Of a DNA stretch of 64,000 bases, positions 9,127-57,944 are shown in pieces (the stretch's first letter is position 1; each line of letters opens with the position of its first letter). Under the pieces are notes generated by a model that was given only the letters and a program-made list of their open reading frames with translations, ran no database searches and was not told the origin of the DNA. The DNA comes from Malacoraja senta (taxonomy: Eukaryota): the NCBI GenBank assembly GCA_038087875.1, contig CM075994.1, positions 372,001 through 436,000 on the forward strand, read 5' to 3'. Made by a program: the position numbers and the translations under genes.

Positions 9127-9865
9127 AAATCCGGCCGTGACTAAACCTCGCCTCAACTACGAAACCTCGCCTCGACTAAACTCCACCTCACACTCAAACC
9201 TCAACTCACCAAACCTGCCTCGACTAAACTCCACCTCACACTCAAACCTCAACTCACTAAACCTCGCCTCGACTAAACTCCACCTCACGACTAAACACCT
9301 CTCGACTAAACTCCACCTCTCGACTAAACTCCACCTCTCGACTAAACTCCACCTCACGACTAAACTCCACCTCACGACTAAACTCCACCTCACACCTAAT
9401 CCACGCCTCGACAAATCACCGCCTCTCTGTTCCCGTGGGGGGGGGACTCGGGGTCAACGTCAGCGCCAGTGCGCCTCTCCCCTCCCCTCCCACCGACTCT
9501 CTCGGGCAAGGCGCCTGCGCCGCTCTTGGCCCTGCACCCCAGGTTGGAGCCGCTCCGCTCACGTGTGGCGCCGCCAATGATTGGGTTTGGGGGGGGGGGT
9601 AGAGGCTAGAAATTGCGGGGGCGGGTGAGAGCCGGCGATTAGTCGATGCGTGGATTAGGTGCGAGGTGAAGTTTAGTCGTGAGGTGGGAGGTTTCGTTGA
9701 GGTGAGGTGTGAGGTGAAGTTTAGTGAGGTGTGAGGTTTCTTTGAGGGGCGAGGTTTAGTGAGGCACAGTTTAGTGGAGGCGAGGTTTATGTGTGAGGAG
9801 AGGTTTGGTAGTGAGGTATCGTCGAGGCGAGGGGTTTAGTGAGGCGAGGGGATTAGTCGAGGTGT
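9127..9865. repeat. Foldback structure: minisatellite arms in inverted orientation around a GC-rich core
   Basis: ACTAAACTCCACCTC(A/T)CG units at 9138-9395; complementary GAGGTGAAGTTTAGT-type units at 9650-9865. Confidence 0.75.
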
Positions 9866-12801: not shown

Positions 12802-14270
12802 TGTACATTCCAAAAGTGAGGAGAAATGACGGTAGATAGAAGCGGGAGCTGAAGGGACAACAACAGCCAAAGTGCTTGGCGAACATTGGCCGTTTGCTCA
12901 CTGCATTTCATCAACAGTAAGGCATTATTTGTGTTTTTTTTTAATTCCTTTGGCATCTAGAAAGTTTCAGAAGTGATAAATCTGGTTGTCAAATTTTAAA
13001 ATCGCCCATTGTTCTCAAGTGGGTTTTTACTTACAAAAAGAAAACGCATCTGAAGCAAAATTTACAGCCAGATTTATCACTTCTGAGACTTTTAGATACC
13101 AAAGGAATCAAGAAAAAACACAAATAATGTCTTACTGCTGATGAAATGCAGTGAGCAAACGCGATAATTCCCAATATTTTCAATTCCGATATCTGCACGG
13201 CCAATGTTCGCCAAGCACTTTAGCCGTTGTTGTCCCTTCAGCTCTCGCTTCTCTTTACCTTCATTTCGCTTCACTTTTGGAATTCTGAAGTTGGGTACAT
13301 GTCTCTCACGCTTACCCTGGCTTCCACATTTTTACAGCGCAAAAATTCAACATTTTGGCGGTTTTTAACAGGTAGGAAAGTACGCGTTTCGTGTATTAAC
13401 AACATATAGGGAGGTTTCACGGCAGTCGGGTCACGAACCATGACCCGTACTGTTGCTACGCTACGCCAAGTGGATTACACGCGATGAACTGCAGGTAAGT
13501 ACTTAGCGTTGTTTCCAGCGTAGCGGGCCCGTTAAAACCCGCCGAAATTGTCACATTTTTGCGCTGTAAATAATTATGGAAATCGGGATAAGCGTGGGAG
13601 ACATTTAGCCTACTTCAGAATTCAAAAAGTGAGGAGAAATGACGGTAGATGGAAGCGAGAGCTGAAGGGACAACAACAGCCAAAGTGCTTGGCGAACATT
13701 TATTTGCCTTGCTCACTGCATTTCATCAACTAAGGTATTATTTGGTTTTTTCTTTATTCCTTTGGCATCTAAAAAGTTTCAGAAGGGATAAATCTGGCTG
13801 TAACATTTTAAAATCGCCCCTGGTTCTCAAGTGGGTTTTTACATACAAAAAGAAAACGCCTCTGAAGCAAAATTTACAACCAGATTTATCACTTCTGAGA
13901 CTTTTTAGATACCAAAGGAATCAAGAAAAACCACAAATAATGCCTTACCGTTAATGAAATGCAGTGAGCAAACGCGATAAATCCCAATATTTTCAATTCC
14001 GCTTCTCTTTACCTTCATTTCGCTTCACTTTTGGAATTCTGAAGTTGGGTACATGTCTCTCACACTTACGACGACTTCCACAATTTTTTACAGCGCACAA
14101 ATTCAACATTTTGGCGGTTTTTAACAGGTAGGAAAGTACGTGTTTCTTGCATTAATAACATATACCGGAAGTTACGGATGTCCTCCAGATGGATTGAGCA
14201 GCTCCGTGCGTCAAGCCCTATGACCCGGTGACCTTACGTGCAACCCCCCTATACCGGAAGCTGCGATGTC
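12802..14270. mobile_element. Palindromic non-autonomous DNA transposon; a complete copy (13409-14249) nested in another copy
   Basis: Termini GGGAGGTTTCACG...CGTGCAACCCCCC flanked by TATA (13405-13408, 14250-14253); flanks are the same family. Confidence 0.8.
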
Positions 14271-17365: not shown

Positions 17366-18359
17366 TTATACATGTCATGCGTGGTTTGAAGAGCAAAAAC
17401 TTGTAGTTTACAATGACAAAATTGAAAAGTTGAGGAAAAACAAGGTGTACAGACTTGCTTATTGGTTACAATCTGAGGAGTATGATGCTATTGATTATGA
17501 TATGCCAATGTACCAGGTAGCAACTGATCTTCTCCATAAAGGCTTGGTCTATTGCTAGAAATTGTAATGTATTTACCTATCTGTTATGGACTTACAGCAC
17601 ATAATACAATAATATTAAAGTTCTGATCTTGAGAATATCACATTTTTGAATTTTCAAGGCAGTCTGGGTGTTTATTACTATTTCAATTTTGTAATTAGCT
17701 ATAATTAGGTAACTAACTAATTATAGGCTTTAATTTCAGGTCATCCAAATAAGATGTTTTATATTTGCTTCAGAATGCATCAATCTATAATAACTGAAAA
17801 TTTCATTCAGTTGTCTTAATTTTTAAGAAAGTTATGGGCTTTTGATTTTCCTCGGTCACAGCTTTTGTGTAAAGTCAATGGAAAAGCAATAGGGAACAAG
17901 ATGCTAATTTCCGAGTATGAAAATGGCCATAACTCTTTTAATAGTGAAGATATGAAAAGTAAATTAGGTGTCAAATTAAACTTCTTTTTATGCTTTATCT
18001 GATGGGATAAATTGCAGACTTGATTTTTTAAATCTCAAAATTTTGTAACATTGCTAGAATATGGGGCTTGCGGACTGCCTATCAGGAGGTGAAGTCCTGG
18101 GTGGAACGTTCGTGTCTCCGTGGGTTTTGTTCCCCAGGTGTTTACCTTCTTTGCCTCCTTGCTCCCCTTCATTTGACCCTCCCTACCCCCACCTGCGTTC
18201 TGCGCAACCCCAGGGTCCCCTGACTCAACTACAGGGGTAGTGGAAGTGGGGGGAGCGTGGGTTGGGGGCTTAGCGGCACCGGAGGCAGAGGCCTCCGTCC
18301 AGGATTTGGGGCAATTCCTCTGAATATGCCCCACTTCCTTACAGGCATGGCACCTTGTA

Positions 18360-19976
18360 CAGTGGCTTGCAAAAGTATTCATACCCCTTGAACTTTTCCA
18401 CATTTTGTCACGTTACAACCACAAACGTAAATGTATTTTATTGGGATTTTATGTGATAGACCAACACAAAGTGGCGCATAATTGTGAAGTGGAAGGAAAA
18501 TGATACATGGTTTTCAAATTTTTTTACAAATAAAGAACTGAAAAGTGTCACGTGCAAAAGTATTCAGCCCCCTTTACTCTGATACCCCTAAATAAAATCC
18601 AATGCAACCAATTGCCTTCAGAAGTCACCTAATTAGTAAATAGAGTCCACTTGTGTGTAATCTAATCTCAGTATAAATACAGCTGTTCTGTGAAGGCCTC
18701 AGAGGTTTGTTAGAGAACATTAGTGAACAAACAGCATCACGAAGCCCAAGGAACACACCAGACAGGTCAGGGATAAAGTTTTGGAGAAGTTTAAAGCAGG
18801 GTTAGGTTATAACAAATATCCCAAGCTTTGAACATCTCACGGAGCACTGTTCAATCCATCATCCGAAAATGGAAAGAGTATGGCACAACTGCAAACCTAC
18901 CAAGACATGGCCGTCCACCTAAACTGACAGGCCGGGCAAGGAGAGCATTGATCAGAGAAGCAGCCAAGAGGCCCATGGTAACTCTGGAGGAGCTGCAGAG
19001 ATCCACAGCTCAGGTGGGAGAATCTGTCCACAGGACAACTATTAGTCGTACACTCCACAAATCGGGCCTTTATGGAAGAGTGGCAAGAAGAAAGCCATTG
19101 TTGAAAAAAAGCCATAAGAAGTCCCGTTTGCAGTTTGCCACAAGCCATGTGGGGGACACAGCAAACATGTGGAGGAAGGTGCTCTGGTCAGATGAGACCA
19201 AAATTGAAGTTTTGGGCCTAAATGCAAAACGCTATGTGTGGCGGAAACCTAACGCTGCACATCACCCTGAACACACCATCCCCACTGTGAAACATGGTGG
19301 TGGCAGCATCATGCTGTGGGGATGCTTTTCTTCAGCAGGGACAGGGAAGCTGGTCAGAGTTGATGGGAAGATGGATGGAGCCAAATACAGGGCAATCTTG
19401 GAAGAAAACCTGTTAGAGTCTGCAAAAGACTTGAGACTGGGGCAGAGGTTCACCTTCCAGCAGGACAACAACCCTAAACGTACAGCCAGAGCTACAATGG
19501 AATCGTTTAGATCAATGCATATTCATGTGTTAGAATGGCCCAGTCAAAGTCCAGACCTAAATCCAATTGAGAATCTCTGGCAATACTTGAAAATTGCTGT
19601 TCACAGACGCTCTCCATCCAATCTGACTGAGCTTGAGCTATTTTGCAAAGAAGAATGGGCAAAAATTTCAGTCTCTAGATGTGCAAAGCTGGTACAGACA
19701 TACCCCCAAAAGATTTGCAGCTGTAATTGCAGCGAAAGGTGCTTCTACAAAGTATTGACTCAGGGGGGCTGAATACTTTTGCACGCGACACTTTTCAGTT
19801 TTTTATTTGTAAAAAAATTTGAAAACCATGTATCATTTTCCTTCCACTTCACAATTATGTACCACTTTGTGTTGGTCTATCACATAAAATCCCAATAAAA
19901 TACATTTATGTTTGTGGTTGTAATGTGACAAAATGTGGAAAAGTTCAAGGGGTATGAAAACTTTTGCAAGCCACTG
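18360..19976 (+). mobile_element. Full-length Tc1 DNA transposon (1617 bp, IR/DR-type TIRs)
   Basis: TIRs of about 210 bp starting CAGTGGCTTGCAAAAG with an inner direct repeat; TA duplication at 18358-18359 and 19977-19978. Confidence 0.97.
18739..19758 (+). pseudogene. Tc1 DDE transposase, lightly disabled
   Basis: GRPPK, WSDET, FQQDN and SPDLNPIE motifs; ACG in place of the start at 18739; apparent frameshifts near 18815 and 19705. Confidence 0.92.
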
Positions 19977-20759
19977 TAGCTGGTGAAATCTCGCCCAACT
20001 TGATGGACACAGGAGCACCCGTCAACTTCCTCCTCCTGGTCTAGCAGCATCGTCAGCTGGCACCGGGGGGGAAGAATGTGCCGCAGCTCCTTCTTGTGGA
20101 ACTACTGGGATATCGGGGTGATGTCCGTGAGGACCTTTCCCAGTGTGTGAAGGTGGGGAAGAAGGGCCTCATTTGTGATGCAGGGCAGGATGTTGGACAG
20201 GACCACCCGCTGCGCGGTGGACTCCAAGGGCTCAACCTGCAAAAAATATTCCCCCACTGTGACCCCTTTACTCACGGCCGCGTTCACCCCCTCAACGGAC
20301 TCGAGGAAGAACACGGCCTTCCCGAACATCTTCCCCACGTACAGGACGCCTGCGGGCTAGGTTGCCGCCACAACAGCCATGGCAGCCGTGCAGTCCTCCA
20401 GGGTCATCTGGAGAGGGAAGTAGCACCTTATCCCATGCTCAAAAGGCACGTTCTTCATGGGGAACTGGGCCCCAAGGAGCAGCCGAAGCAGCTGAAGCAG
20501 CCGCCTTTGCATAGCTCCTGGGAGGCCCCGATCCCCCAGAACACTGACCCTGCATGACATCAGGCACTACAATTAAACAAAACAATTAAATAAAATACCA
20601 CACAGACATAGACAGTCCAAATGGCACGGGGCCAAGTCCACACACAAAAACAAATATGGAACCGTTCGAGGGAGGCGAGTGATGTTGCCTCGAACGATGA
20701 TAATGGCAGCTCCCAAAAACTGCTGTGTCACCACCTCTGTTATATTGAATACTGAATAT

Positions 20760-21655: not shown

Positions 21656-21799
21656 CCGATTTCTTATGCTTTTTTCTATCATCTTCAAGGTAATCTTCAA
21701 ACCATTACATATGAGGTCAGTGCCCAAGTAAGTCCACAATGTACATTAATTGTATATTACCCCAGACCTGTGTACCACTCCTGCTCTGCCTTAGAGTAG

Positions 21800-22746
21800 T
21801 TGCAGCATGGACTATCCCAACGTTTAAGATAGAGTTGGACAGGTACATGGATAGGATGTGCCGTTTGAGAGGAAAAAAATTACGGGACTGCTTTCCATTT
21901 CTGGACATAGAAACATAGAAAATAGGTGCAGGAATAACTTCCATCCAGCACCGCCATTCAATATGATCATGGCTGATCATCCAGTCTTAGTAACCCGTTC
22001 CTGCTTTCTCCCCATATCCCTTGATTCTGTTAGCCCCAAGAGCTAACTCTCTCTCTTGAATACATCCAACTCTCTCTTGAATACATCCGTTGAATTGGCC
22101 TCCACTGCCTTCTGTGGCCTAGAATTCCAAAGATATGGCAACCGTAGTTATTCCACTCCTGCTCCCATATTTCCTCGTGATTGTTGTTCCCACGAGTAAA
22201 TGAACATTCTTCTCCTCTCTTTGTCACAGAGTCGTTGAGTGATACAGCATGGAAACAGTCCCTTCAGACCAACTTAATTACAGGCCAATATGCCCAGCAA
22301 CACTAGTCCCATCTGCTTGTGTTTGGTCCATATTCCTGCAAACCTGTCCTATCCATGTACCTGTCCAACTGTATCTTATACGTTGGGATAGTCCCTGCTG
22401 CAACTACCTCCTCTGGCAGCTTGTTCTATCCACCAACCACATTTTGTGTGAAAAAGTGACCCCTCAGATTACTATTAAATCTTTCCCCCTTAACCTTAAA
22501 CCTATATGCTCTGGTCTTCGAGTCATCTACTCTGGGCAAGAGACTCTATTCCTCTCATGATTTTATACTCCTCTATAAGATCACCCCTCATCCTCCTGCG
22601 CTCCAAGGATATAGTCCCAGCCTACTCAACCTATATCTCAGACCCTCTAGTCCTGGCAACATCGCAATAAATGTTCTCTGTACCCTTTCCAGCTTGACAA
22701 CATTATTCCTGTAACTTGGTGCCCAGAACTGAACACAATACTCTAA
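21800..22746 (-). mobile_element. Cluster of CR1 3'-end fragments; the last resumes at 24028-24052 and 25768-25797
   Basis: CR1 3' motifs; AACACAATACTCTAA continues as ATGCAGCCTCACCAACGTCTTATA after the insertion. Confidence 0.75.
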
Positions 22747-22876
22747 AGGGCCTGTCCCACTTTGCGATTTTTGCGGCGACTGCGAGCGTCAGTGACTGAC
22801 GCACGTAGTCACCCTAAAAACTGTCAAGTTGTACTACATACACGCTGACGTATGCTGTCCTGCGGGTGACGCCCGG

Positions 22877-22906
22877 TTAGGGTTAGGGTCAGGGCTAGGG
22901 TTAGGG
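22877..22906 (+). repeat. Telomere-type (TTAGGG)n, five units with variants
   Basis: ttaggg ttaggg tcaggg ctaggg ttaggg. Confidence 0.9.
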
Positions 22907-23099
22907 GCCGCAGATGGGCTGTAACATATTCTTCCTTCAATGCATGGATTTTAAACATTAATATATTAAAATTAATACAATAAAATCAATTGTGCAAATG
23001 AAAAGATGTCTGAGTAGTTCAGTTTTATTACAGATGCACTGGTCCGCTTCCAGATCCAATCACTGTCTCTAACTTTTCACAGGGATGGATTCAGCAACC

Positions 23100-23335
23100 T
23101 CTCCCCTCCACCCCCCTCCCGCCCCCATCCCTCCTTCTCCACTCCCCCCTACCCTTCTCCCCTCCCCTCTCCCCCCTTCCCCCCTCTTCCTCCCTGCTCC
23201 CTGCTCCACTCTTCTCCCCCTTCTCCACACCTCCTCTCTGCTCACATCCCCTTCTCCCCCTCTCCATCCCTTCTCCCATTCTCCAACCTCCCCCCCCCCT
23301 TCCCCCGCCGCCCCCTTGCCTTGCTTCAAAATGGG
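23100..23335. repeat. Polypyrimidine (C/T) low-complexity tract
   Basis: Seen directly. Confidence 0.9.
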
Positions 23336-23707
23336 TGATGGGTATTTAGAGGCCGGAGCAGGTGGGTGGCACTGGTACATTGACAACATTGCCTGTACCC
23401 AGTTGAAAAGCCCGCTGTCTCTGGGGGTTTGGAGAGACCATTGGAAGAGAGATCTGCCTCTGGGACAACTCGTGGCCAACAGTTTAGTTCCCATGAGGAG
23501 CAGGCAGAACATTAGGGGTTTGATTCCAATGCCTGGGGCCCCTGTGTCACATTTAGTTCAGAGACACAGTGCCCTTTGGCCCACCGAGTCCACACCGACC
23601 AGCGATCCCCGCACACTAACATTATCCCACACAGCTAGGGACAATATATACTTATACCAAGCCTATCAACCTACAAACTTGTGCACCTTTGGAGTGCAGG
23701 AGGAAAA

Positions 23708-23802
23708 CCTAACCCTAACCCTAACCCTAGCCCCTAGACCCTAGCACCTAGCATTAACCCTAACCCTAACCCTAGCCCCTAGCCCCTAGCCCTAACCCTA
23801 AC
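23708..23802 (-). repeat. Telomere-type (CCCTAA)n with CCCTAG variants
   Basis: Seen directly. Confidence 0.9.
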
Positions 23803-24052
23803 CGGGCGTCACCCGCAGGACAGCATACGTCAGCGTGTGACAAGGCGCACGACATGATGAGACACCCATATGTCGCCTGAAGATTTTGAACTTTCTAAAA
23901 TCCAGGGGTGGCAGGGAGACACTGCGCGTCACTACAAGCTTCACTTCGCGTCACGCCACGACCACGCTGCGACAATCTCTTTTCAGGCTGTCGCCGAAAA
24001 TGTGGCCCAAGTGGGACAAGCCCTTAAAATGCAGCCTCACCAACGTCTTATA

Positions 24053-25767
24053 GGGGGGTTGCACGTAAGGTCATCGGGTCAAAGGGCGTGACACACGGAG
24101 CAGCTCAATCCATGTGGAGGACATGGCGGCCTCGTACACACTGTTAACACACGAAACGCGTACTATATTTCCTGTTAAAAACCGGCAAAACGATCATTTT
24201 TTGCGCTGTAAATAATTGTGGGTGCGGTCATTGAAAGCAGGAAGGCATCAAGTTTAAACTGGTGTTATTTCATGGTGTCGCGTCTTTTACAATCCGCGAC
24301 TAATAGCCGCAATCATTGTCGTGTCCAGAGAGACAGCACCACCACGATAAGCCTTCACTAAATAAAGCGAACTCAAAGTCAGAGCAATTTGATTGCAATA
24401 TTGTGGGGTTATTTTTTGGGGTGACTGAGCGCTCAGAACCAAATGCTCCAGTATCTTTGCTCTGAACCCGAGCACCAAGGTGTAAGCTGCATAAGGAGCG
24501 CATCCCTCGGGACAGCCCCCACTCTCCCCCCCCCCGGGACAGCGCTGTCTGGCCACGGCCGCCCTCCGCCCAGTCTCCCCTTGTGGGCCGCACTGTCAGG
24601 AGCTGTGGGTCGGCAGCGCGGGGCTGGGTGGAGCGGGTCCGGGTGGAGCGGGGACGGGGCTCCGGGCAACGTCAGCTGCAGCAAAGTTGGGGACGGTCTG
24701 CTTCCTCCGCCCACCCAAAGTCACTGACTGCGCTGCACCGACACCCCGACCTCATCCTCTCCCCCCATCCCCCCATCCCCGGCCGCGGGGGCAGATCAAA
24801 AGGACCTCGATACAATGGTTGAGTGGTCACACCAATGGGGCATGCAGTTCAACCCTTCCAAATGTGAAACCATTCGTGTCACCAGAAAGAGGAATCCAGG
24901 CGAAACATCGTACAATATACTTGGTACCACCCTTGAAGAATCCAAACAAACCAAGTATCTTGGCATAAAATTGCAGAATGATCTGCATTGGAATGGTCAG
25001 ACTCATCATGCAACGGTGAAAGCAACAGGTGTCCCTAAATTTTCTGAAGCGCAACTTTCATCATTGTTCAACTTCTGTCAAGGAGAAGCTATACTTCACT
25101 CTCGTTAGACCTCATTTGGACTAGCAGTTGCAGCATGGGACCCATACACAAATAAAAACATTTATAAAAAGACAGGCAGCTCGATTTGTTACTAACACCT
25201 ATGAGACAGAAGCGAGTGTTACCAAACTTCTGAATTCTCTGGGGTGGAACCCTCTCCAAGACAGACGTGAAGCTCACGTTTGACCTGTTTTTACAAAATG
25301 TTAAATGGTCAGCTCAACATAGATTACAAGACCAACACCAAACCCAAACCAATTAGGAGCAGACGAGGGCATTCGATCCAATTTGTGATTCCAGCTACCA
25401 AGACAGATGTGTACAGCAATTCATTCTTCCCCCGCTCAATTAAAGCATGGAATAATCTCCACGCTACTATAGTTACCCAACCAGACGCAACTAAATTTAA
25501 GGTAGCTCTTTCTTCCCAAAAACCCTTTCTGGCTTAAGTCCTCCCTCCACCACCTCCAGTTTAAATTCCATTTGGAATATTTTGGAGGACCAAGAAACCA
25601 AGAAGGCCCAGGGTCAGCGTTGAGTCCGGATGGTGGGACAGAAGAAGGGCCCGGTTACTGGCAGCCATAAGAAGTACTTACCTGACGTTCACCGCGTGTA
25701 CTCCAGAAGGCGTTGCCTGGCAACAGTACGGGTCACGGGTCGTGACCTCGACTGCGTGCAACCTCGC
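24053..25767. mobile_element. TATA-flanked DNA transposon (family of 13409-14249) with a nested LINE
   Basis: Termini GGGGGGTTGCACG / CGTGCAACCTCGC; TATA at 24049-24052 and 25768-25771. Confidence 0.85.
24790..25605 (+). mobile_element. 3' fragment of a divergent CR1-group LINE
   Basis: EWSHQWGMQFNPSKC, LVRPHL, SFFPRSIKAWNNL; CCAAGAAA-type tail; its 3' end recurs inverted near 16660-16727 and 39000-39066. Confidence 0.8.
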
Positions 25768-26576
25768 TATACAACTGCGACATGACCTCCCAACTCTTCC
25801 ATTTGAACCTCCTAGTCGATTCTAAGTTAAAATTGTTTCCATTAATTCCCTCAAATTGTCAGCGCCACAGACCCGTGGGTGTTGGCGATGAAAGAAGACC
25901 AAACGATGCAAGTTCTAACACTGGACATTTTTGTGGCATCAGCTGAACTTGTTCGCCCGGATCGCCCGGCCGGAGGGTTCACATTGTCGAGGAGTGGGGC
26001 TCATTTCTCAGGAGAAATTAAAGGACGTTTGTTTTTTAAGGTGGTGGGACTAGGATTGTTTTGCTGAAACCGTCTGCGCGCCCACACGGACACACGGGAC
26101 AATTTACACTCACACCAAGTGTAAATGCACCGTCCAGAAGACCACCCATAGTCATGAGACCACCCGGCCGTGCAGAAATGCACCCATACCCGCGGGTCTC
26201 TGACCCTGCAAGGCAGCAACTCTACCGCAGTGTCGCCGAGCGGTGGCGCTGGGTTCTGGTATCTGAACAATTTTCAGCAAAGATCCTATAGCGAGCGATA
26301 GGACCTTTGATTTTCAGATCAGAGCCAAAGGGCGATCTGCTTTTACCGGCCGGACACCCGTCCAACTCGATCTCACGGACTAGACTTCCTCGCCAGCGAG
26401 CTGGACAACCCGGTGTAAAGGTCAGCAGCGACCAAGACTCCGGAGGCATCGAATCTGGTGAACAAATAACGGAGAGGGTGTTAACGAAGGAACTGCAGAT
26501 GCTGGAAAATCGAAGGTACACAAAAATGCTGGAGAAACTCAGCGGGTGCAGCAGCATCTATGGAGCGAAGGAAATA

Positions 26577-26612: not shown

Positions 26613-27168
26613 TAGGGAGGGGGGGGGGGGGCGGAGAGAAGAAAGGAAAAAGGAGGACGAGGAGCCCGTAGAGAGTTTTGTTGTTTGGGAGTCTGATGTC
26701 GCAGTGTGGATTCTGCAAACGGCTTTCAAAATCTATCTTTAATAATTCAGCGTTTGACAAATGCAAAACGTAATTGAATTTCACCCTCCGAGGGAAAGGA
26801 AAAGTGAGTTTAACGCCCTTCTGACAGTGTTTTCACAAATGTTGTGTTAACCATCTGGCTGTTTTCATGTGTTTCTGTTCAATTCCCATTTTGGAGCAGG
26901 CGTTGGCAAAATGTCGTCATATTCTCCTTCTTTCCTGTTACCCCTTAAACAACACCGATTGTCCAAACCGAGCAAAATCCCAAATTAAAAATTCTCCTGT
27001 GTTCAAGTAATCGATTGTTCCTTTGTTCCATTTGTTCATTTTTCTTTTCTTCCTTAACACCAGTTTAGGCTGTTAAACGTCTCCACTCTGCTCAGAAGGG
27101 AGACACAAAATACAGGAGTATTGTATCCAGGGTAAGGCTTTGTATTGTATCCAGGGTAAGGGGGGAGA

Positions 27169-28102
27169 ATGAGGGCCAGGGCAGTTTACTGCTCTGGATG
27201 TCAGATGTGGGAGGTCATGGAGTCTGATACCCCTCCAGACGTTCACATCTGTGTCAGGTGCGTAGAGATGGGGTTCCCAAGGGACCGTGTTAGGAACCTG
27301 GAGCAGCAGCTCGATGACCTCTGTCTGATCAGGGAGAGTGAGGAGGTCATAGAAAAGAGTTATAGGGAGGTGGCCACTCCAAGACCACAGGAGGCAGACA
27401 AGTGGGTCACGGTTAGGAAGGGCAAGGGGCAGAGGCAGGGACTAGTGAGTACCCCAGTGGCTGTACACCTTGAAAATAAGTACTCCTGTTTGAGTACTGT
27501 TGAGGGGGACAGCCTTCCTGCAGGTAGCAACAGCGGCCGGGCCTCCGGCACAGAGACCAGCCCTATTGCTCAGAAGGGTAGGGAAAAGAAGAGGAGGGCA
27601 ATAGTAATAGGGGACTCTATGGTTAGGGGGTCGGATAGGCGATTCTGTGAACGCAGTCAGGAGACCCGGATGGTAGTTTGCCTCCCTGGTGCCAGGGTCA
27701 GGGATGTGTCTGAACGCGTCCAAGATATCCTGAAATCGGAGGGAGAGGAGCCTGAGGTTGTGGTACATATAGGTACCAATGACATAGGTAGAAAAAGAGA
27801 AGTCTTGAAAGGAGAATTTAGGGAGTTGGGAGGAGAGTTAAGGAGAAGGACTACAAAGGTAACAATCTCAGGATTACTACCTGTGCCACGCGACGGTGAG
27901 AGTAGGAATGGAGTGAGGTGGAGGATAAATGCGTGGCTGAGGAACTGGTGCAGCGGGCAAGGGATTCAAATTTCTGGATCATTGGGACCTCTTTTGGGGA
28001 AGGTGTGACCTGTACAGAAAGGACGGGTTGCACTTGAACCCGAGGGGGACCAATATCCTGGCGGGGAGATTTGCAAAGGCTACTGGGGAGACTTTAAACT
28101 AG
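27169..28102 (+). pseudogene. CR1 ORF1 (Cys-rich N-terminus, coiled coil, SGNH esterase-like), one frameshift near 27960
   Basis: CSGCQMW...CVRC, IGDSMVRG, VVVHIGTND, and DGLHLN in the shifted frame. Confidence 0.9.
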
Positions 28103-28107
28103 AACGG

Positions 28108-31053
28108 TTGGGGGGAGGGACTCAAATAGAGAAAGCTAGTGGAAAATGTGGGAGGCAGGAGGCAGAGAAGGGAAGCACTCGGACCCAAAATGTAGGGGAG
28201 AAAGAAGAAAAAGATAATAAACAGAGAATAAGTGGTGGTGGGTTTCTTAAATGTGTATATTTTAATGCTAGGAGCATTGTAAGAAAGGTGGATGAGCTTA
28301 GAGCCTGCATTGACACCTGGAAGTATGATGTTGTGGCGATCAGTGAAACATGGTTGCAGGAGGGCTGTGATTGGCAAATAAATATTCCAGGATTTCGTTG
28401 CTTCAGGGGTGATAGAATTGGAGGGGCAAGAGGTGGGGGTGTTGCATTGCTTGTCAAGGAAGATATTACAGCAGTGCTTTGGCAGGATAGATTAGAGGGC
28501 TCGTCTAGGGAGGCTATTTGGGTGGAACTCAGAAATGGGAAAGGTGTAGCAACACTTATAGGGGTGTATTATAGACCGCCAAATGGGGAGCGAGAATTGG
28601 AAGAGCAAATATGTAAGGAGATAGCAGATATTAGTAGTAAGCACAAGGTAGTGATTGTGGGAGATTTCAATTTTCCACACATAGACTGGGAAACACATTC
28701 TGTAAAAGGGCTGGATGGTTTGGAGTTTGTAAAATGTGTGCAAGATAGTTTTTTGCAGCAATACATAGAGGTACCTACTAGAGAAGGGGCAGTGCTGGAC
28801 CTCCTGTTAGGAAATGAGACAGGGCAGGTGGCGGAGGTATGCGTCGGGGAGCACTTCGGGTCCAGTGATCACAATACCATTAGTTTCAATATAATTATGG
28901 AGAGGGTCAGAACTGGACCTAGGGTTGAGATTTTTGTTTGGAGAAAGGCTAACTTTGAGGAGATGCGAAAGGATTTAAAAGGAGTGAATTGGGACATGTT
29001 GTTTTATGGGAAGGATGTAGAAGAAAAATGGAGGACATTTAAGGGTGAAATTTTAAGAGTACAGAATCTTTATGTCCCTGTTCGGTTGAAAGGAAATAGT
29101 AAAAAATGGAAAGAGCCATGGCTTTCAAGGGAAATTGGACACTTGGTTCAGAAAAAGAGAGAGATCTACAATAATTATAGGCAGCATGGAGTAAATGAGG
29201 TGCTTGAGGAGTATAAAGAATGTAAAAAGAATATTAAGAAAGAAATTAGAAAAGCTAAAAGAAGATATGAGGTTGCTTTGGCAAGTAAGGTGAAAGTAAA
29301 TCCAAAGGGTTTCTACAGCTATATTAATAGCAAAAGGATAACAAGGAATAAAATTGGTCCATTAGAGAGTCAGAGTGGACAGTTATCTGCAGAGCCAAAA
29401 GAGATGGGGGAGATATTGAACAATTTCTTTTCTTCGGTATTCACGAAGGAGAAGGATATGGAATTATGTGAGGTAAGGGAAACAAGCAGAGTAGCAATGG
29501 AAACTGTGAGATTCAAAGAAGAGGAGGTGCGGACACTTTTGAAAAATATGAAAACGGATAAGTCTCCAGGTCCTGACAGGATATTCCCTAGGACATTGAG
29601 GGAAGTTAGTGTAGAAATAGCAGGGGCTATGACAGAAATATTTCAAATGTCATTAGAAACGGGAATAGTGCCGGAGGATTGGCGTACTGCGCATGTTGTT
29701 CCGTTGTTTAAAAAGGGTTCGAAGAGTAAACCTAGCAATTATAGACCTGTTAGTTTGACGTCAGTGGTGGGCAAATTAATGGAAAGGATACTTAAAGATA
29801 ATATATATAAGCATCTGGATAAGCAGGGTCTGATTAGGAACAGTCAACATGGATTTGTGCCTGGAAGGTCATGCTTGACTAATCTTCTTGAATTTTTCGA
29901 AGAGGTTACTAGGGAAATTGATGAGGGTAAAGCAGTGGATGTTGTCTATCTGGACTTCAGTAAGGCCTTTGACAAGGTTCCTCATGGAAGGTTGGTTAAG
30001 AAGATTCAATTGTTGGGTATTAATGGTGGAGTAGCAAGATGGATTCAACAGTGGCTGAATGGGAGATGCCAGAGAGTAATGGTGGATGGCTGTTTGTCAG
30101 GTTGGAGGCCGGTGACTAGTGGGGTGCCTCAGGGGTCTGTGTTGGGTCCACTGTTGTTTGTCATGTACATCAATGATCTGGATGATGGTGTGGAAAATTG
30201 GATTAGTAAGTATGCAGATGATACTAAGATAGGTGGTGTTGTGGATAATGAAGTAGATTTTCAAAGTCTACAGAGAGATTTAGGCCATTTGGAAGAGTGG
30301 GCTGAAAGATGGCAGATGGAGTTTAATGCTGACAAATGCGAGGTGCTACATCTCGGCAGGACAAATTAAAATAGGACGTACACGGTAAATGGTAGCGAAT
30401 TGAGGAATGCAGTTGAACAGAGGGATCTAGGAATAACTGTGCATAGTTCCCTGAAGGTGGAATCTCATGTAGATAGGGTGGTAAAGAAAGCTTTTGGTGT
30501 GCTGGCCTTTATAAATCGGAGCATTGAATATAGAAGTTGGGATGTAATGTTAAAATTGTACAAGGCATTGGTGAGGCCAATTCTGGAGTATGGAGTACAA
30601 TTTTGGTCGCCTAATTATAGGAAGGATGTCAACAAAATAGAGAGAGTACAGAGGAGATTTACCAGAATGTTGCCTGGGTTTCAGCAACTAAGTTACAGAG
30701 AAAGGTTGAACAAGTTAGGTCTTTATTCTTTGGAGCGCAGAAGGTTAAGAGGGGACTTGATAGAGGTCTTTAAAATTATGAGCGGGTTAGACAGAGTGGA
30801 CGTGGATAAGCTTTTCCCATTGAGAGTAGGGAAGATTCAAACAAGGGGACATGACTTGAGAATTAAGGGACAGAAGTTTAGGGGGGACATTAGGGGGAAC
30901 TTCTTTACTCAGAGAGTGGTAGCTGTGTGGAATGAGCTTCCAGTGGAAGTGGTGGAGGCAGGTTCGATGTTATCCTTTAAAAATAGATTGGATGGGTATA
31001 TGGACGGGAAAGGAATGGAGGGTTATGGTCTGAGTGCAGGTAGATGGGACTAG
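28108..31053 (+). pseudogene. CR1 ORF2 (APE endonuclease + RT), one premature stop at 30367-30369
   Basis: NARSI, VGDFN, SDH, GVPQGS, YADD; the same frame continues to 31053. Confidence 0.95.
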
Positions 31054-31414: not shown

Positions 31415-34400
31415 TACATAGAAATTAGGTGCAAGAGTAGGCCATTCGGCCCTTCGAGCCTGCACCGCCATTCAATATGATCATGGCTGATCATCCAACT
31501 CAGTATCCCGTACCTGCCTTCTCTCCATACCCTCTGATCCCCTTAGCCACAAGGGCCACATCTAACTCCTTCTTAAATATAGCCAATGAACTGGCCTCAA
31601 CTACCCTCTGTGGCAGAGTTCCAGAGATTCACCACTCTCTGTGTGAAAAAAGTTCTTCTCATCTCGGTTTTAAAGGATTTCCCCCTTATCCTTAAGCTGT
31701 GACCCCTTGTCCTGGACTTCCCCAACATCGGGAGCAATCTTCCTGCATCTAGCCTGTCCAACCCCTTAAGAATTTTGTAAGTTTCTATAAGATCCCCTCT
31801 CAATCTCCTAAATTCTAGAGAGTATAAACCAAGTCTATCCAGTCTTTCTTCATAAGACAGTCCTGACATCCCAGGAATCAGTCTGGTGAACCTTCTCTGC
31901 ACTCCCTCTATGGCAATAATGTCCTTCCTCAGATTTGGAGACCAAAACTGTACGCAATCCTCCAGGTGTGGTCTCACCAATACCCTATACAACTGCAGTA
32001 AAACCTCCCTGCTCCTATACTCAAATCCTTTTGCTATGAAAGCTAACATACCATTTGCTTTGTTCACTGCCTGCTGCACCTGCATGCCTACTTTCAATGA
32101 CAGGTGTACCATGACACCCAGGTCTCGTTGCATCCCCCCTTTTCCTAGTCGGCCACCATTTAGATAATAGGCTACTTTCCTGTTTTTGCCACCAAAATGG
32201 ATAACCTCACATTTATCCACATTATACTGCATCTGCCAAACATTTGCCCACTCACCCAGCCTATCCAAGTCACCTTGCAGTCTCCTAGCATCCTCCTCAC
32301 AGCTAACACTTCCCCCCAGCTTAGTGTCATCCGCAAACTTGGAGATATTGCCTTCAATTCACTCATCCAGATCATTAATATATATTTTAAATAGCTGGGG
32401 ACCCAGCACTGAGCCTTGCGGTACCCCACTAGTCACTGCCTGCCATTGTGAAAAGGACCCGTTTACTCCTACTCTTTGCTTCCTGTTTGCCAGCCAGTTC
32501 TCCATCCACGTCAATACTGAACACCCAATGCCATGTGCTTTAAGTTTGTATACTAATCTCTTATGTGAGACCTTGTCGAAAGCCTTCTGGAAGTCCAGAT
32601 ACGCCACATCCACTGGTTCTCCCCTATCCACGCTACTAGTTACATTCTCGAAAAATTCTATAAGATTCGTCAGACATGATTTACCTTTCGTAAATCCATG
32701 CTGACTTTGTCCAATGATTTCACCACTTTCCAAATGTGCTGCTATCCCATCTTTAATTACTGACTCTAGCAGTTTCCCCACTACCGATGTTAGACAAACT
32801 GGTCTGTAATTCCCCGTTTTCTCTCTCCCTCCCTTCTTAAAAAGTGGGATTACGTTTGCTATCCGCCAATCGTCAGGAACTACTCCAGAATCTACAGAGT
32901 TTTGAAAGATTATTACTAATGCATCCACTATGTCTGGAGCTACTTCCTTAAGTACTCTGGGATGCAGCCTATCTGGCCCTGGGAATTTATCGGCCTTTAA
33001 TCCATTCAATTTACCCAACACCACTTCCCGACTAACCTGGATTTCACTCAATTCCTCCAACTCCTTTGACCCGCGGTCCGCTGCTATTTCCGGCAGATTA
33101 TTTATGTCTTCCTTAGTGAAGACGGAACCAAAGTAGTTATTCAATTGGTCCGCCATATCCTTGTTCCCAATGATCAACTCACCTGTTTCTGACTGCAAGG
33201 GACCTACATTTGTTTTAACTAATCTCTTTCTTTTCACATATCTATAAAAACTTTTGCAGTCAGTTTTTATGTTCCCTGCCAGTCTTCTTTCATAATCTAT
33301 TTTTCCTTTCCTAATTAAGCCCTTTATCCTCCTCTGCTGGTCTCTGAATTTCTCCCAGTCCTCCGGTATGCTGCTTTTTCTGGCTAATTTGTATCATCAT
33401 CCTTCGCTTTGATACTATCCCTGATTTACCTTGTTATCCACGGATGCACTACCTTCCCCGATTTATTTTTTTGCCAAACTGGGATGAACAATTTTTGTAG
33501 TTCATCCATGCAGTCTTTAACTGTCTTCCATTGCATATCCACTGTCAACCCTTTTAGAATTAATTGCCAGTCAATCTTGGCCAATTCACGTCTCATACCC
33601 TCAAAGTTACCTTTCTTTAAGTTCAGAACCATTGTTTCTGAATTAACAATGTCACTCTCCATCCTAATGAAGAACTCAACCATATTATGGTCACTCTTGC
33701 CCAAGGGGGCACGTACAACAAGACTGCTAACTAACCCTTCCTCATTACTCAATACCCAGTCTAAAATAGCCTGCTCTCTCGTTGGTTCCTCTACATGTTG
33801 ATTTAGATAACTATCCCGCATACATTCCAAGAAATCCTCTTCCTCAGCACCCCTGCCAATTTGATTCACCCAATCTATATGTAGATTGAAGTCACCCATT
33901 ATAACTGTTTTGCCTTTGTCGCACGCATTTCTAATTTCCTGTTTGATACCATCTCCAACTTCACTACTACTGTTAGGTGGCCTGTACACAACACCCACCA
34001 GTGTTTTCTGCCCCTTAGTGTTTCGCAGCTCTACCCATACCGATTCCACATCCTCCATACTAATGTCCTTCCTTTCCATTACGTTAATCTCCTCTCTAAT
34101 CAGCAACGCTACCCCACCTCCTTTTCCTTTCTCTCTATCCCTCCTGAATATTGAATATCCCTGGATGTTCAGTTCCCAGCCTTGGTCACCCTGGAGCCAT
34201 GTCTCCGTGATCCCAACTATATCATAGTCATTAATAGCTATCTGCACATTCAACTCATCCACCTTATTACGAATGCTCCTTGCATTGAGACACAAAGCCT
34301 TCAGGCTTGCTTTTACAACACTCTTACCACTTATACAATTATGTTGAAAAGTGGCCTTTTTGATTTTTGCCCTGGTTTTGTCTGCTTGCCACTTTTACTT

Positions 34401-35927
34401 TTCACCTTGCTACCTATTGCTTCTACCCTCATTTTACACCCCTCTGTCTCTACGCTCACACATTTAAGAAACCCTTTCCCTTTAACTCCATCCTCCACTA
34501 TCCCATTCGACACCCCACCCCCCTTATTCAGTTTAAAACCACCCGTGTAGCAGTGGCAAACCTGCCTGCCAGAATGCTGGTCCCACACCTGTTAAGATGC
34601 AATCCGTCCCTTTTGTACAGTTCCCCCTTACCCCAAAACAGATCCCAGTGATCTAAGAATCTAAATCCCTGCCCCGTGCACCAGTTCCTCAGCCACACGT
34701 TCAGGTCCCGTATCTCCCTGTTCCTGCTCTCGCCAGCACGAGGAACTCGAAGCAAACCGGAGATAACAACCCTGGAGGTCCTGCTTTTCAGCATTTTCCC
34801 GAGCTCTTTAAAGTCACGCTGCAGAATATTCAACCCCTTCTTTCCTACTTCGTTTGTGCCGACATGCACTACCACTTCCGGATGTTCACCTTCGCCCTTG
34901 AGGATTTTCTGCACTCTGTCCGTGACATCCTGGATCCTGGCACCAGGAAGGCAGCACACCATCCTCGCATCCCGTCTGTTGCCGCAGAAACCCCTGTCCG
35001 TACCTCTCACAATGGAGTCTCCCACTACAATGGCGTTGCCTGCCTTAGGCCTTTTTGGTTTTGGCTCAACAGCCCTATTCGCATTGCAAGCCAGTCCGCC
35101 GCTCAGTGTAAACACATCTTCTGTCCCAACAGCTTCTAAGTGGGTGAACCTGTTCACAAGAGGTACAACACCCGGGGACGTTTGCATTCCACGCTTCCCT
35201 CCCTTTCTCACTGTCTCCCACCTTCGATCTTCCAGTACCTTAGGTGTAACAATCGTACTGTAGGACTTGTCGAGGAACGACTCCGTTTCTCGGACGAACC
35301 GGAGGTCATCCACTTGCTTCTCCAGTTCCCCAACACGGCCCTTCAGGAGCTCTACCTGGATGCACTTCTCGCATTTGTAGCAGCCAGAGGCACCAGCGGT
35401 GTCCTTGACCTCCCACATAATGCAAGCATCGCACTGAATCAGCTTGCCTGACATCTCCTTCTTTCGTCTCTACCTCTCAAGCGTATTGCGTGGTCCCCTC
35501 TCGTCACCCTCCTCGCCGAAGACTCGCACTTTTCTCTCAGGGCACTTCCCTCACAAGGCCGCTCACTCACTGCCGCTCGCTAAGAGCCGTCTTGCTTAAA
35601 TTGACTGATAAATTGCCTGATTTACCAATTTACAAACCAAATTCCTCAGTTTTCAACTGTTTTCCCGGCACTGACTCACTTCTCTCCTCCCACTCGGGCT
35701 AGAGCCAATCAGTCGTATCTCTTGCTAATCTCCTGCTGCTGTTGCTCCCAAATCTACAGCAGTTCTGAGTAAAGTCTGCCTGTGCTTGGCTTCTACTTTT
35801 CAACTGTTTTCCCCCCTCTGACTCACTTCTCTCCTCCCACTCGGGCTAGAGCCAATCAGTCGTATCTCTTGCTAATCTCCTGCTGCTGTTGCTCCCAAAT
35901 CTACAGCAGTTCTGAGTAAAGTCTGCT
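31415..35927 (-). mobile_element. Full-length CR1 LINE, subfamily A (ORF2 frameshifted)
   Basis: 5'UTR, ORF1, ORF2 in pieces (33426-34295, 32359-33237, 31597-32268) and 3'UTR. Confidence 0.97.
34528..35454 (-). CDS. CR1 ORF1p, intact 308 aa (SGNH esterase-like)
   Basis: ATG to stop uninterrupted; CDACIMW, VGDSIVRG, HVGTNE, DGLHLN. Confidence 0.92.
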   Translation of the reverse strand: MSGKLIQCDACIMWEVKDTAGASGCYKCEKCIQVELLKGRVGELEKQVDDLRFVRETESFLDKSYSTIVTPKVLEDRRWETVRKGGKRGMQTSPGVVPLVNRFTHLEAVGTEDVFTLSGGLACNANRAVEPKPKRPKAGNAIVVGDSIVRGTDRGFCGNRRDARMVCCLPGARIQDVTDRVQKILKGEGEHPEVVVHVGTNEVGKKGLNILQRDFKELGKMLKSRTSRVVISGLLRVPRAGESRNREIRDLNVWLRNWCTGQGFRFLDHWDLFWGKGELYKRDGLHLNRCGTSILAGRFATATRVVLN

Positions 35928-36428: not shown

Positions 36429-39400
36429 CAGGGCTCAAAATTAACGGTTGCCCGGGTGCCAATGGCGACCTAACGTCCTGCTGGGCAACCTAAAAGTCGT
36501 GTAATTTTGCCTGGCTTGTCAAGCATCCGGGACACCTGCCGTTCAATATGCAATGGAAGGCATTTAAAGACTGCATGGATGAACTACAAAAATTGTTCAT
36601 CCCAGTTTGGCAAAAGAATAAATCAGGGAAGGTAGTGCATCCGTGGATAACAAGGGAAATCAGGGATAGTATCAAAGCAAAAGATGATGCGTACAAATTA
36701 GCCAGAAAAAGCAGCATACCAGAGGACTGGGAGAAATTCAGAGACCAGCAGAGGAGGACAAAGGGCTTAATTAGGAAAGGGAAAATAGATTATGAAAGAA
36801 AACTGGCAGGGAACATAAAAACGGACTGCAAAAGTTTTTATAGATATGTGAAGAGAAAGAGATTAGTTAAAACAAATGTAGGTCACTTCCAGTCAGAAAC
36901 AGGTGAGTTGATCATGGGGAACAAGGATATGGCGGACCAATTGAATAACTACTTTGGTTCCGTCTTCACTAAGGAAGACATAAATAATCTGCCGGAAATA
37001 GCAGGGGACCGCGGGTCAAAGGAGATGGAGGAACTGAGTGAAATCCAGGTTAGTCGGGAAGTGGTGTTGGGTAAATTGAATAGATTAAAGGCCGATAAAT
37101 CACCAGGGTCAGATAGGCTGCATCCCAGAGTACTTAAGGAAGTAGCTCCAGAAATAGTGGATGCATTAGTGATAATTTTTCAAAACTCTTTAGATTCTGG
37201 AGTAGTTCCTGACGATTGGAGGGTAGCAAATGTAACCCCACTTTTTAAAAAGAGAGGGAGGGAGAAAAAGGGGAATTACAGACCAGTTTGTCTAACATCG
37301 GTAGTGGGGAAACTGCTAGAGTCAGTTATTAAAGATGGGATGGCAGCACATTTGGAAAGTGGTGACATCATTGGACAAAGTCAGCATGGATTTACGAAAG
37401 GTAAATCATGTCTGACGAATCTTATAGAATTTTTTGAGGATGTAACTAGTATAGTGGATAGGGGAGAACCAGTGGATGTGTTGTATCTGGACTTTCAGAA
37501 TGCTTTCGACAAGGTACCACATAAGAGATTAGTATACAAACTTAAAGCACACGGTATTGGGGGTTCAGTATTGATGTGGATAGAGAACTGGCTGGCAAAC
37601 AGGAAGCAAAGAGTAGGAGTAAACGGGTCCTTTTCACAATGGCAGGCAGTGACTAGTGGGGTACCGCAAGGCTCAGTGCTGGGACCCCAGCTATTTCCAA
37701 TTTATATTAATGAACTGGATGAGGGAATTGAAGGCAACATCTCCAAGTTTGCGGATGACACTAAGCTGGGGGGCAGTGTTAGCTGTGAGGAGGATGCTAG
37801 GAGACTGCAAGGTGACTTGGATAGGCTGGGTGAGTGGGCAAATGTTTGGCAGATGCAGTGTAATGTGGATAAATGTGAGGTTATCCACTTTGGTGGCAAA
37901 AACCGGAAAGCAGACTATTATCTAAATGGTGGCCGATTAGGAAAAGGGGAGATGCAGCGAGACCTGGGTGTCATGGTACACCAGTCATTGAAAGTAGGGA
38001 TGCAGGTGCAGCAGGCAGTGAAGAAAGCGAATGGTATGTTAGCATTCATAGCAAAAGGATTTGAGTATAGGAGCAGGGAGGTTCTACTGCAGTTGTACAA
38101 GGTCTTGGTGAGACAACACCTGGAGTATTGCGTACAGTTTTGGTCTCCAAGTCTGAGGAAGGACATTATAGCCATAGAGGGAGTACAGAGAAGGTTCACC
38201 AGACTGATTCCTGGGATGTCAGGACTTTCATATGGAGAAAGACTGGATAGACTCGCTAAAATTTAGGAGATTCAGAGGGGATCTTATAGAAACATACAGA
38301 ATTCTTATGGGGTTGGACAGGCTCGATGCAGGAAGATTGTTCCCGATGTTGGGGAAGTCCAGGACAAGGGGTCACAGCTTAAGGATAAGGGGGAAATCCT
38401 TTAAGACCGAGATGAGAAAAAACTTTTTCATACAGAGAGTGGTGAATCTCTGGAACTCTCTGCCACAGAGGGTAGTGGAGGCCAGTTCATTGGCTATATT
38501 TAAGAGGGAGTTAGATGTGGCCCTTGTGGCTAAAGGGATCAGGGGGTATAGAGAGAAGGCAGGTACGGGATACTGAGTTGGATGATCAGCCATGATCATA
38601 TTGAATGGCGGTGCAGGCTCGAAGGGCCGAATGGTCTACTCCTGCACCTAGTTTCTATGTATCTATGTATCTAACTCTGAGCGGGCCCCCTCTCTATCTC
38701 TCTCACTGTCACTCTCCATCTCCGCCCGCCATCCATATCCGTGGTTCTCCGCTCTCCGCCGCTCCTCATCCGGTGGCACGGCCGGCCGCCTTGCACATGC
38801 GCACTGCCACGGCCAGCAAATCATCGCCCGCCCTGCACATGCGCACTCTCACGGCAACTGGTCGGCACTGGGCACTTTCTTTCTCCCTTTGCATTGTGGG
38901 AGATCTGGCAGCCATTGCTGTCCAGTCGCCGCCTCGTCGCGACCACTGAAAACCAATGCAGAATCACTCCGTGGAGCTGGAGTAATTCCCTGGAGTAACT
39001 CTTGCTTCTTGGTTTCCTGGTCCTCCAAAAATATTCTAAATGGAATTTAAACTGGAGGTGGTGGAGTGTCCATCACGTAACTCTGAACAATAGCAGCCTA
39101 TTGTACTTTATCTGTTTATTTATTGTGTATATATATGGTCTATGGTATATAAACACACTGAACTTTTAAATCCTGTTCTGTATTATGTTTACATATTCTG
39201 TTGTGCTGCAGCAAGCAAGAATTTCATTGTCCTATCTGGGATACAGGACAATAAAACTCTCTTGACTCTTGACATGGACTTAAGCAAAAAAGGGTTCTTG
39301 GGGATAAAAGAGCTACCCTAAATTTAGATGTGTCTGGTTGGGTAACTATGGTAGGGTGAAGACTATTCCATGCTTCAATTGTGCGGGGGAACTACATGGA

Positions 39401-52800: not shown

Positions 52801-52864
52801 ATCTCTGGAACTCTCTGCCACAGAGGGTAGTTGATGCCAGTTCATTGGCTATATTTAAGAGGGA
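49828..52864 (+). mobile_element. Chimeric CR1 (subfamily B head, subfamily A ORF2), truncated at both ends
   Basis: 49828-49965 matches 28115-28255; the rest matches subfamily A; ends in a GT-rich repeat. Confidence 0.92.
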
Positions 52865-57935: not shown

Positions 57936-57944
57936 CTTGGCCAA

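What the first reader, a model, noticed from the sequence alone, without database searches (positions are those of the whole stretch)
22747..24024. Harbinger-type element with inward-facing telomeric repeats on a perfect 49-bp inverted repeat
Seen: TIRs and TAA flanks; 22840-22888 is the exact reverse complement of 23790-23838, and each arm runs into telomere repeats (TTAGGG left, CCCTAA right), while the arms nearer the termini are diverged. The enclosed ~800 bp holds a C/T tract, a SINE piece and a weak possible transposase trace (KLLAT...SLFQ, about 23380-23490, minus). Known: TAA/TTA target duplication is typical of PIF/Harbinger, whose second protein has a Myb/SANT-like domain, the same fold class as TRF telomere binders. 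Inference: a DNA transposon family spreading interstitial telomeric sequence, or telomerase-healed breaks within a MITE.
Basis: partly seen in the sequence, partly recalled or inferred. Interest (0 to 1): 0.7.

Follow-up and report, generated by a model that had tools for sequence, protein, structure and literature searches.

The report
Telomere-repeat-carrying Harbinger mini-transposon family
This is one copy of a common, gene-less jumping DNA element whose arms carry short telomere-like repeats as an inherited family trait, so it scatters such repeats through the genome, most likely as passengers.

Summary
The structure is real. It is a 1,278-bp element with TAA flanks, 16-bp terminal inverted repeats and an exact 49-bp inner inverted repeat, of which 14 bp are telomeric. 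It sits in a CR1 LINE fossil: 265-380 contigs per run show the empty site.

In four related organisms, many copies at unrelated flanks run from the terminal repeat through the same core into a telomere-like tract, and on into the same AT-rich interior. The left tract is therefore a family trait, not a one-off healed break.

The transposase trace failed: Pfam gave 0 families in 6 of 6 frames, and a search of 1.84 billion proteins found no transposase.

Best reading: a non-autonomous PIF/Harbinger element moved in trans, with short degenerate tracts that arose once, were copied to both arms and vary by slippage. No autonomous partner was found. The right tract was not compared with other copies, and nothing shows that the tracts have a function. 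This is a modest variant of a known kind.

The parts
22252..22743 (-). Host site, left: decayed CR1-type LINE piece into which the element inserted
   Evidence: Matches other window repeats, e.g. 22545-22743 to 30586-30791 inside the reverse-transcriptase ORFs at 28009-31053
22744..22746 (+). Target-site duplication TAA, left
   Evidence: empty-site contigs
22747..22762 (+). Left terminal inverted repeat, 16 bp
   Evidence: 84-124 contigs per run have unrelated sequence just left of it (table 7)
22763..22839 (+). Outer left arm with a hairpin and repeated TGACG/GCGAC-type motifs; the variable part of the family
   Evidence: lowest depth (22800-22815) and most listed indels
22840..22874 (+). 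35-bp non-telomeric core of the perfect inner inverted repeat, left copy
   Evidence: high depth in 4 of 4 runs
22875..22906 (+). Left telomere-like tract, about 5 units, G-rich strand pointing inward; family trait
   Evidence: crossed by contigs from other copies (table 8)
22907..23097 (+). AT-rich interior directly behind the left tract; part of the family sequence
   Evidence: Covered in 4 of 4 runs up to 23095, the end of the stretch laid
23098..23320 (+). Low-complexity C/T tract
   Evidence: not compared with other copies
23321..23551 (.). Unassigned sequence holding the KLLAT...SLFQ letters; no protein homology found
23552..23709 (-). Truncated SINE-like repeat that ends where the right tract begins, with a 4-base overlap (AACC)
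   Evidence: 77-86% matches to window copies at 17161, 39517, 40381 and 49728; copies at 7123 and 40384 continue past this point. SINE label and strand are recalled, from no call
23710..23803 (-). Right telomere-like tract, about 15 degenerate units with a 45-bp duplication; G-rich strand pointing inward
   Evidence: not compared with other copies
23804..23838 (-). 35-bp core of the inner inverted repeat, right copy
23839..24008 (-). Outer right arm, longer than the left but homologous to it
   Evidence: 0 of 500 shuffles reached the score
24009..24024 (-). Right terminal inverted repeat, 1 mismatch to the left
24025..24027 (+). Target-site duplication TAA, right
24028..24052 (-). Host site, right: continuation of the same CR1 piece, cut short by another transposon at 24049
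   Evidence: Matches the loose-end consensus of empty-site contigs and the CR1 copy at 30559-30677

Best explanation
A non-autonomous PIF/Harbinger (Tourist-like) DNA transposon copy, inserted at TAA in an old CR1 LINE. Shown: it belongs to a multi-copy family in several related organisms, and its left arm normally runs TIR, variable arm, 35-bp core, short telomere-like tract, AT-rich interior. Inferred from the superfamily: it is cut and pasted in trans by a DDE transposase plus a Myb-like protein that binds short subterminal motifs; the repeated TGACG/GCGAC-type words are the likelier sites. Inferred: the tract arose once in a founder, by telomerase insertion at a break or by slippage from a GGTTAG seed. 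It was then copied to the other arm with the core and has since changed length and sequence by slippage. It spreads as a passenger. The perfect 49-mer needs only a fairly young copy, or recent copying between the arms.
For: [quoted passage not shown] Empty CR1 sites in 329, 380, 265 and 313 contigs; unrelated flanks left of the TIR in 108, 124, 84 and 114 contigs with 0.36-0.38 agreement. Of 32 listed pieces, 15 start in the TIR or outer arm and 12 of these 15 reach at least one telomeric unit. Four pieces in 3 of 4 runs bridge the whole tract with 31 or more letters each side, and one in the fourth run has 30. At 22907 and 22910, just past the tract, 99% or more of depth shows one shared non-telomeric letter, so these are not chromosome-end contigs; depth there is 0.65-1.04 of that in the core. 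Contigs of other copies show tract variants of differing length and sequence (table 5c). Both arms join the tract at the identical base. No coding remnant was found. The two TIRs differ at 1 of 16 bases, so the arms differ at 1 of 65 strictly paired bases.
Against: No autonomous partner was found, so superfamily assignment rests on the termini alone. Only 22640-23095 was laid on other genomes; the right tract, SINE junction and C/T tract were not compared. The piece list keeps the longest records (32 of 50,544), which favours copies like this one; 1 of the 15 (X16 record 17) leaves the reference at 22868 and goes on for 221 unlike letters, so some relatives may lack the tract. The tool drops human-like contigs without notice and says depth is no copy number. 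This copy differs from the majority letter at about 11 listed places outside the core but at none listed inside it (38 rows hidden), which could mean constraint or arm-to-arm conversion. The right flank has one A more than the empty-site consensus. No run held half of the stretch's words, so this locus has no read support.
Confidence: 0.72

Rival explanations
1. Same family, but the tracts are working parts: the partner's Myb-like protein binds TTAGGG-type sites, or host TRF1/TRF2 bind them and help pairing, protection or insertion of the excised element.
For: Tracts are in both arms, in mirror orientation, at the inner edge of the best-kept core. The left one is kept in 4 of 4 relatives. There are 2 and 7 YTAGGGTTR words (TRF half-site, motif recalled) and G4-type patterns. 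The zebrafish Harbinger Myb-like protein binds a subterminal 9-bp motif (PMC9710019 passage). TRF1/TRF2 bind a subset of interstitial repeats (PMC7215372 passage).
Against: The tracts are degenerate, unequal (33 vs 98 bp) and variable between copies. They lie 128 and 221 bp from the ends. The arms have other repeated motifs. No partner protein is in hand and there are no binding data. A shared Myb fold alone does not imply shared specificity (own knowledge).
Confidence: 0.12
2. Nested elements: the 49-bp repeat is the TIR of a separate inner element (core, tracts, interior) that sits in a Harbinger shell and also moves on its own.
For: Depth in the core is about 20-26 times that at 22800-22815 in all four runs. 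One listed piece starts at 22840 with 39 unlike letters before it (X1 record 4).
Against: There is no target duplication around the 49-mer (flanks read CAT and GAC). Shell and core occur together at many unrelated sites in 4 of 4 runs. The low-depth stretch carries most listed indels, and right arms would add depth to the core only. No pile of loose ends at 22839 is among the 24 rows shown (1,207 hidden).
Confidence: 0.1
3. One-off event: telomerase added repeats at breaks inside this copy, with an inverted duplication, as described for short interstitial telomeric sequences in mammals.
For: A horse locus with short inverted duplications and head-to-head tracts is described (PMC7215372 passage). 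The SINE piece stops at the right tract with a 4-base overlap. The right tract is untested.
Against: The left tract and both of its junctions recur in other copies in 4 of 4 organisms. Telomerase extends the G-strand 3' end, which here is the arm side, not the SINE side; that junction is identical in both arms. The idea survives only as the origin in a founder, or as a local extension of the right tract.
Confidence: 0.04
4. The perfect arm or right tract is an assembly artefact.
For: No indexed run holds half of the stretch, and no contig spans it.
Against: The window has no N. The two tracts differ right after the shared 14 bases. The CR1 host is continuous across the element and the left half matches the family.
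Confidence: 0.02

Closest known systems
Non-autonomous PIF/Harbinger elements (Tourist-like MITEs such as rice mPing; zebrafish Harbinger3N_DR)
   Same: 3-bp TAA duplication, ~15-bp TIR, no coding capacity, many copies at unrelated sites, repeated subterminal motifs (passages).
   Different: Longer than a typical MITE (1.28 kb), with an inner inverted repeat ending in inward-facing telomere-like tracts and a captured SINE piece. Partner not identified.
Telomere-bearing elements TBE1-3 of Oxytricha
   Same: DNA transposons whose inverted arms carry the host telomeric repeat as a family trait (PMC4724952 passages).
   Different: TBEs are autonomous Tc1/mariner elements with three ORFs, ANT duplication and the repeat at the very tip of the TIR. 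Here the repeats are 128-221 bp inside, degenerate, and the element has Harbinger ends and no genes.
Short interstitial telomeric sequences of mammals (Santagostino et al. 2020, PMC7215372)
   Same: Short internal TTAGGG stretches; head-to-head forms with short inverted duplications are described.
   Different: Those are single-locus scars of break repair. Here the left tract is multiplied by transposition, and the empty site lacks the whole element, not just the tract.
GGTTAG-rich non-autonomous DNA transposons of bony fishes (recalled, from no call)
   Same: Short degenerate telomere-like runs inside DNA transposon arms.
   Different: Not checked: Repbase and Dfam were not searchable, so neither identity nor priority could be tested.

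Membership tests
PIF/Harbinger (non-autonomous) | 3-bp target duplication, usually TAA/TTA | tested here: met
   TAA on both sides; empty CR1 sites with a single TAA in 265-380 contigs per run; one extra A in the right flank is unexplained
PIF/Harbinger (non-autonomous) | Short (~15 bp) terminal inverted repeats at the element boundary | tested here: met
   16 bp with 1 mismatch; unrelated flanks begin at this boundary in 84-124 contigs per run
PIF/Harbinger (non-autonomous) | Many dispersed copies | tested here: met
   4 of 4 related organisms; only one copy in this window; own genome not held
PIF/Harbinger (non-autonomous) | An autonomous partner with the same ends encoding a DDE transposase and a Myb-like protein | not testable with these tools
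   No genome held; pattern scans of viral, metagenome and prokaryote collections found no copy
PIF/Harbinger (non-autonomous) | Subterminal binding sites for the Myb-like protein | tested here: inconclusive
   TGACG/CGTCA occurs 8 times in the arms; binding not testable
PIF/Harbinger (autonomous or deletion derivative with coding remnant) | Transposase or Myb-like coding sequence | tested here: not met
   0 Pfam families in 6 of 6 frames. Flagged frame: 4 hits among 1.84 billion proteins, all tandem-repeat proteins with no tblastn hit back to the window. One plus frame: 0 of 140 candidates (weak test). The other four frames were tested by Pfam only
TBE telomere-bearing elements | Telomeric repeat at the tip of the TIR, ANT duplication, Tc1/mariner transposase plus two ORFs | tested here: not met
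   Repeats are internal, the TSD is TAA, no ORFs were recognised
Short ITS from telomerase-assisted break repair | Single-locus insertion whose orthologous or paralogous empty site lacks only the tract | tested here: not met
   Left tract recurs across copies; right tract not tested
Short ITS from telomerase-assisted break repair | In-register bases at the 3' break end of a tract-less ancestor | not testable with these tools
   The core ends in GG in register with GGTTAG, but no tract-less ancestor was seen

The most novel reading that the evidence does not exclude
A vertebrate Harbinger family whose Myb/SANT partner reads TTAGGG-type sites like TRF proteins, or whose arms recruit host shelterin, so that the tracts are selected parts of the transposon. 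The family would then be a main source of short interstitial telomeric sequence in this lineage and a sink for telomere proteins.
Probability: 0.1. Interest if true: 0.75.

Novelty: new variant of a known kind. Interest (0 to 1): 0.33.

Why it matters
It gives a third route to short interstitial telomeric repeats in a vertebrate, besides chromosome fusion and telomerase-assisted break repair: multiplication as cargo of a DNA transposon. Counts of such repeats in these genomes should therefore not be read as scars of fusions or breaks without checking for this family. If the tracts proved to be binding sites, the family would offer a direct test of whether Harbinger Myb domains and TRF proteins share targets. 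As it stands, the tracts are short, degenerate and probably neutral.

Tried and rejected
Own genome: none is held, so there was no genome-wide copy alignment and no partner search. No second copy lies in the window.

Pattern scans: 0 loci in viral contigs for two patterns and 4 loci for a 19-mer; 0 in metagenome contigs twice; 1 in prokaryote genomes. None of the 5 loci matched the window beyond the seed, so all were dropped as chance.

Transposase trace rejected. The 4 protein hits are tandem-repeat proteins, one of them cadherin-like, whose scores are summed over 6-13 weak stretches.

Rfam: 0 matches. ARAGORN: 0 genes. A whole-element DNA fold only pairs the two arms and had no shuffle control; not used.

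Sequencing runs: 20 of 21 listed hold 22-30% of the words and none holds half. Only 4 runs were laid, on the left 456 bp; the other 17 carry no weight here. Depth over 22864-22911 is dominated by ordinary telomeric contigs and was not used.

Literature: ten searches listed no paper whose title or abstract start describes a TTAGGG-bearing Harbinger element in a vertebrate. Passages of PMC9498494, PMC6947457, PMC9071541 and PMC7397244 held nothing on it. The library lacks most subscription papers and all repeat databases, so this does not show absence from print.

Earlier scan notes: nothing by place or sequence, nor by the first word search.

Full report
Observation. The element spans 22747-24024 between two TAA triplets, with 16-bp TIRs that differ at one base. 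22840-22888 is the exact reverse complement of 23790-23838 and cannot be extended. Of these 49 bp, 35 are non-telomeric and 14 are the start of the tracts. All 11 of 11 window matches to a two-unit telomeric pattern lie in the two tracts, against 0.26 expected. The left tract is about 33 bp (3 TTAGGG, 1 CTAGGG, 1 TCAGGG). The right is about 98 bp (6 TTAGGG, 6 CTAGGG, a 45-bp duplication). The outer arms, 77 and 170 bp, are homologous but gapped; 0 of 500 shuffles reached their score. The window is otherwise LINE-, SINE- and transposon-rich animal DNA. I take it for a cartilaginous fish (skate or ray) from recalled repeat sequences; no call names the organism.

Insertion site. The flanks are two parts of one CR1-type LINE fossil. 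A query with the element and one TAA removed aligns straight through with the CR1 copy at 30559-30677 at 70% over 120 bp. In four public runs of related organisms, 329, 380, 265 and 313 contigs leave the reference behind 22747 with a consensus that matches the window's right flank. These are empty paralogous sites. The window's right flank has one A more than that consensus, which I cannot explain.

Family test. No whole genome is held and no second copy is in the window. A run search listed 21 runs; 20 of them, from 7 coded organisms in 9 studies, hold 22-30% of the words and none holds half, so they are relatives. I laid 4 of them, one each from organisms A, B, E and F, on 22640-23095 at 80% likeness. 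First, 108, 124, 84 and 114 contigs have unrelated sequence left of 22746 (agreement 0.36-0.38), which marks a mobile family with this boundary. Second, of the 32 pieces listed, 15 begin in the TIR or outer arm and 12 of those reach at least one telomeric unit. Two of the other three appear to end with their contig, and one (X16 record 17) goes on for 221 unlike letters after 22868. Third, four pieces in three runs bridge the whole tract with 31 or more letters on both sides, and a fifth, in the fourth run, has 30. Fourth, at 22907 and 22910 at least 99% of the depth shows one shared non-telomeric letter, and depth at 22907 is 0.65-1.04 of that in the core. Core depth is about 1,500-2,600 times that of a single listed contig; the tool warns that this is no copy number, so I read it only as 'many'. 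Other copies show tracts of other lengths and variant units (table 5c). Limits: the list favours long matches (32 of 50,544 pieces), human-like contigs are dropped unseen, and nothing right of 23095 was laid.

Interior. 22907-23095 is family sequence. The C/T tract, the unassigned 23321-23551 and the SINE-like piece were not compared with other copies. The SINE-like piece matches four window copies at 77-86% and stops at the right tract with a 4-base overlap, whereas two other copies continue. That fits a deletion or a truncated insertion joined by microhomology (inference).

Transposase trace. Six frames of 22907-23707, stops read as X, gave 0 Pfam families. The flagged minus frame (80 aa) gave 4 hits among 1.84 billion proteins. 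All four are tandem-repeat proteins, none has a transposase domain, and none hits the window by tblastn. One plus frame gave 0 hits among 140 candidates, a weak test. The trace is best taken as chance.

Mechanism. Shown: termini, target duplication, multi-copy status, and the left tract as a family trait. From the literature (passages only): PIF/Harbinger elements need a transposase and a Myb-like protein, leave a 3-bp duplication that is usually TAA, have ~15-bp TIRs, and the zebrafish Myb-like protein binds a 9-bp subterminal motif (PMC2836001; PMC9710019). Inferred: this element is moved in trans by such a pair. TGACG or its complement occurs 8 times in the arms and is the likelier class of binding site. 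Both arms meet the tract at the same base, so the tract arose once and was copied with the core; two separate healing events are not needed. Its first origin may have been telomerase insertion at a break in a founder, as described for mammalian short interstitial repeats (PMC7215372 passages), or slippage; the data cannot separate these. The perfect 49-mer fits a young copy (1 difference in 65 strictly paired bases). However, this copy differs from the relatives' majority letter at about 11 listed places outside the core and none listed inside (38 rows hidden), so constraint or arm-to-arm conversion is not excluded.

Rivals. Functional tracts (0.12): mirror placement, retention and TRF-type words (motif recalled) speak for it; degeneracy, unequal length and lack of any binding data speak against. 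A nested inner element (0.10): the core is about 20-26 times deeper than 22800-22815, but it has no target duplication and travels with the shell at many sites. One-off healing (0.04) is refuted for the left arm. Assembly artefact (0.02): no read support exists for this locus, but the host LINE is continuous and the left half is family-typical.

Comparison and novelty. It works like a Tourist-type non-autonomous Harbinger element and meets the end-sequence criteria; the partner criterion could not be tested. Telomeric repeats in transposon arms have a precedent in Oxytricha TBEs, which differ in superfamily, position of the repeat and coding capacity (PMC4724952 passages). An unchecked note of this scan reports a similar arrangement in a diatom. 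I recall GGTTAG-rich DNA transposons in bony fishes, from no call. Ten paper searches listed no description of this family; repeat databases and most subscription papers were out of reach, and I opened no supplements. Verdict: a real, family-level feature and a new variant of a known kind, with interest 0.33. The bold reading, tracts as selected binding sites, has probability 0.10 and would merit 0.75.

Noticed in passing
window 9142-9862: Foldback-like element with two mirror arrays of a 17-18-bp GC-rich unit around a 199-bp core; the inner arms are 61 bp at 90%. Termini not worked out.
   Followed up: partly
window 18351-19985: Tc1-like element with 229-bp inverted repeats (94%) and a 319-aa open frame resembling a Tc1 transposase by eye; apparently young.
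   Followed up: partly
window 24049-25771: Another DNA transposon 24 bp right of the element, with 17-bp inverted ends flanked by TATA; its left end recurs at 14078-14253 and 43584-43757, and it holds LINE-like coding fragments.
   Followed up: partly
window 49830-52880, 36494-38266, 57921-59723, 31597-35469, 27160-31053: Several young CR1-type LINE copies with long open frames (up to 1,016 aa) and exact shared stretches up to 113 bp.
   Followed up: no
window 52961-53979: Minisatellite of 30-bp units, 34 copies, next to a CR1 3' end and a long G/A tract.
   Followed up: no
window 21796-21856 and 22347-22407: 61-bp inverted pair at 95% identity within the LINE-derived left flank.
   Followed up: no
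window 22830-22839 and 23847-23855: With the commonest letters of other copies at 22832 and 22835, the left arm reads GCACGACAT just outside the core, the same word that the right arm has in direct orientation just outside its core; possibly a repeated binding motif.
   Followed up: no
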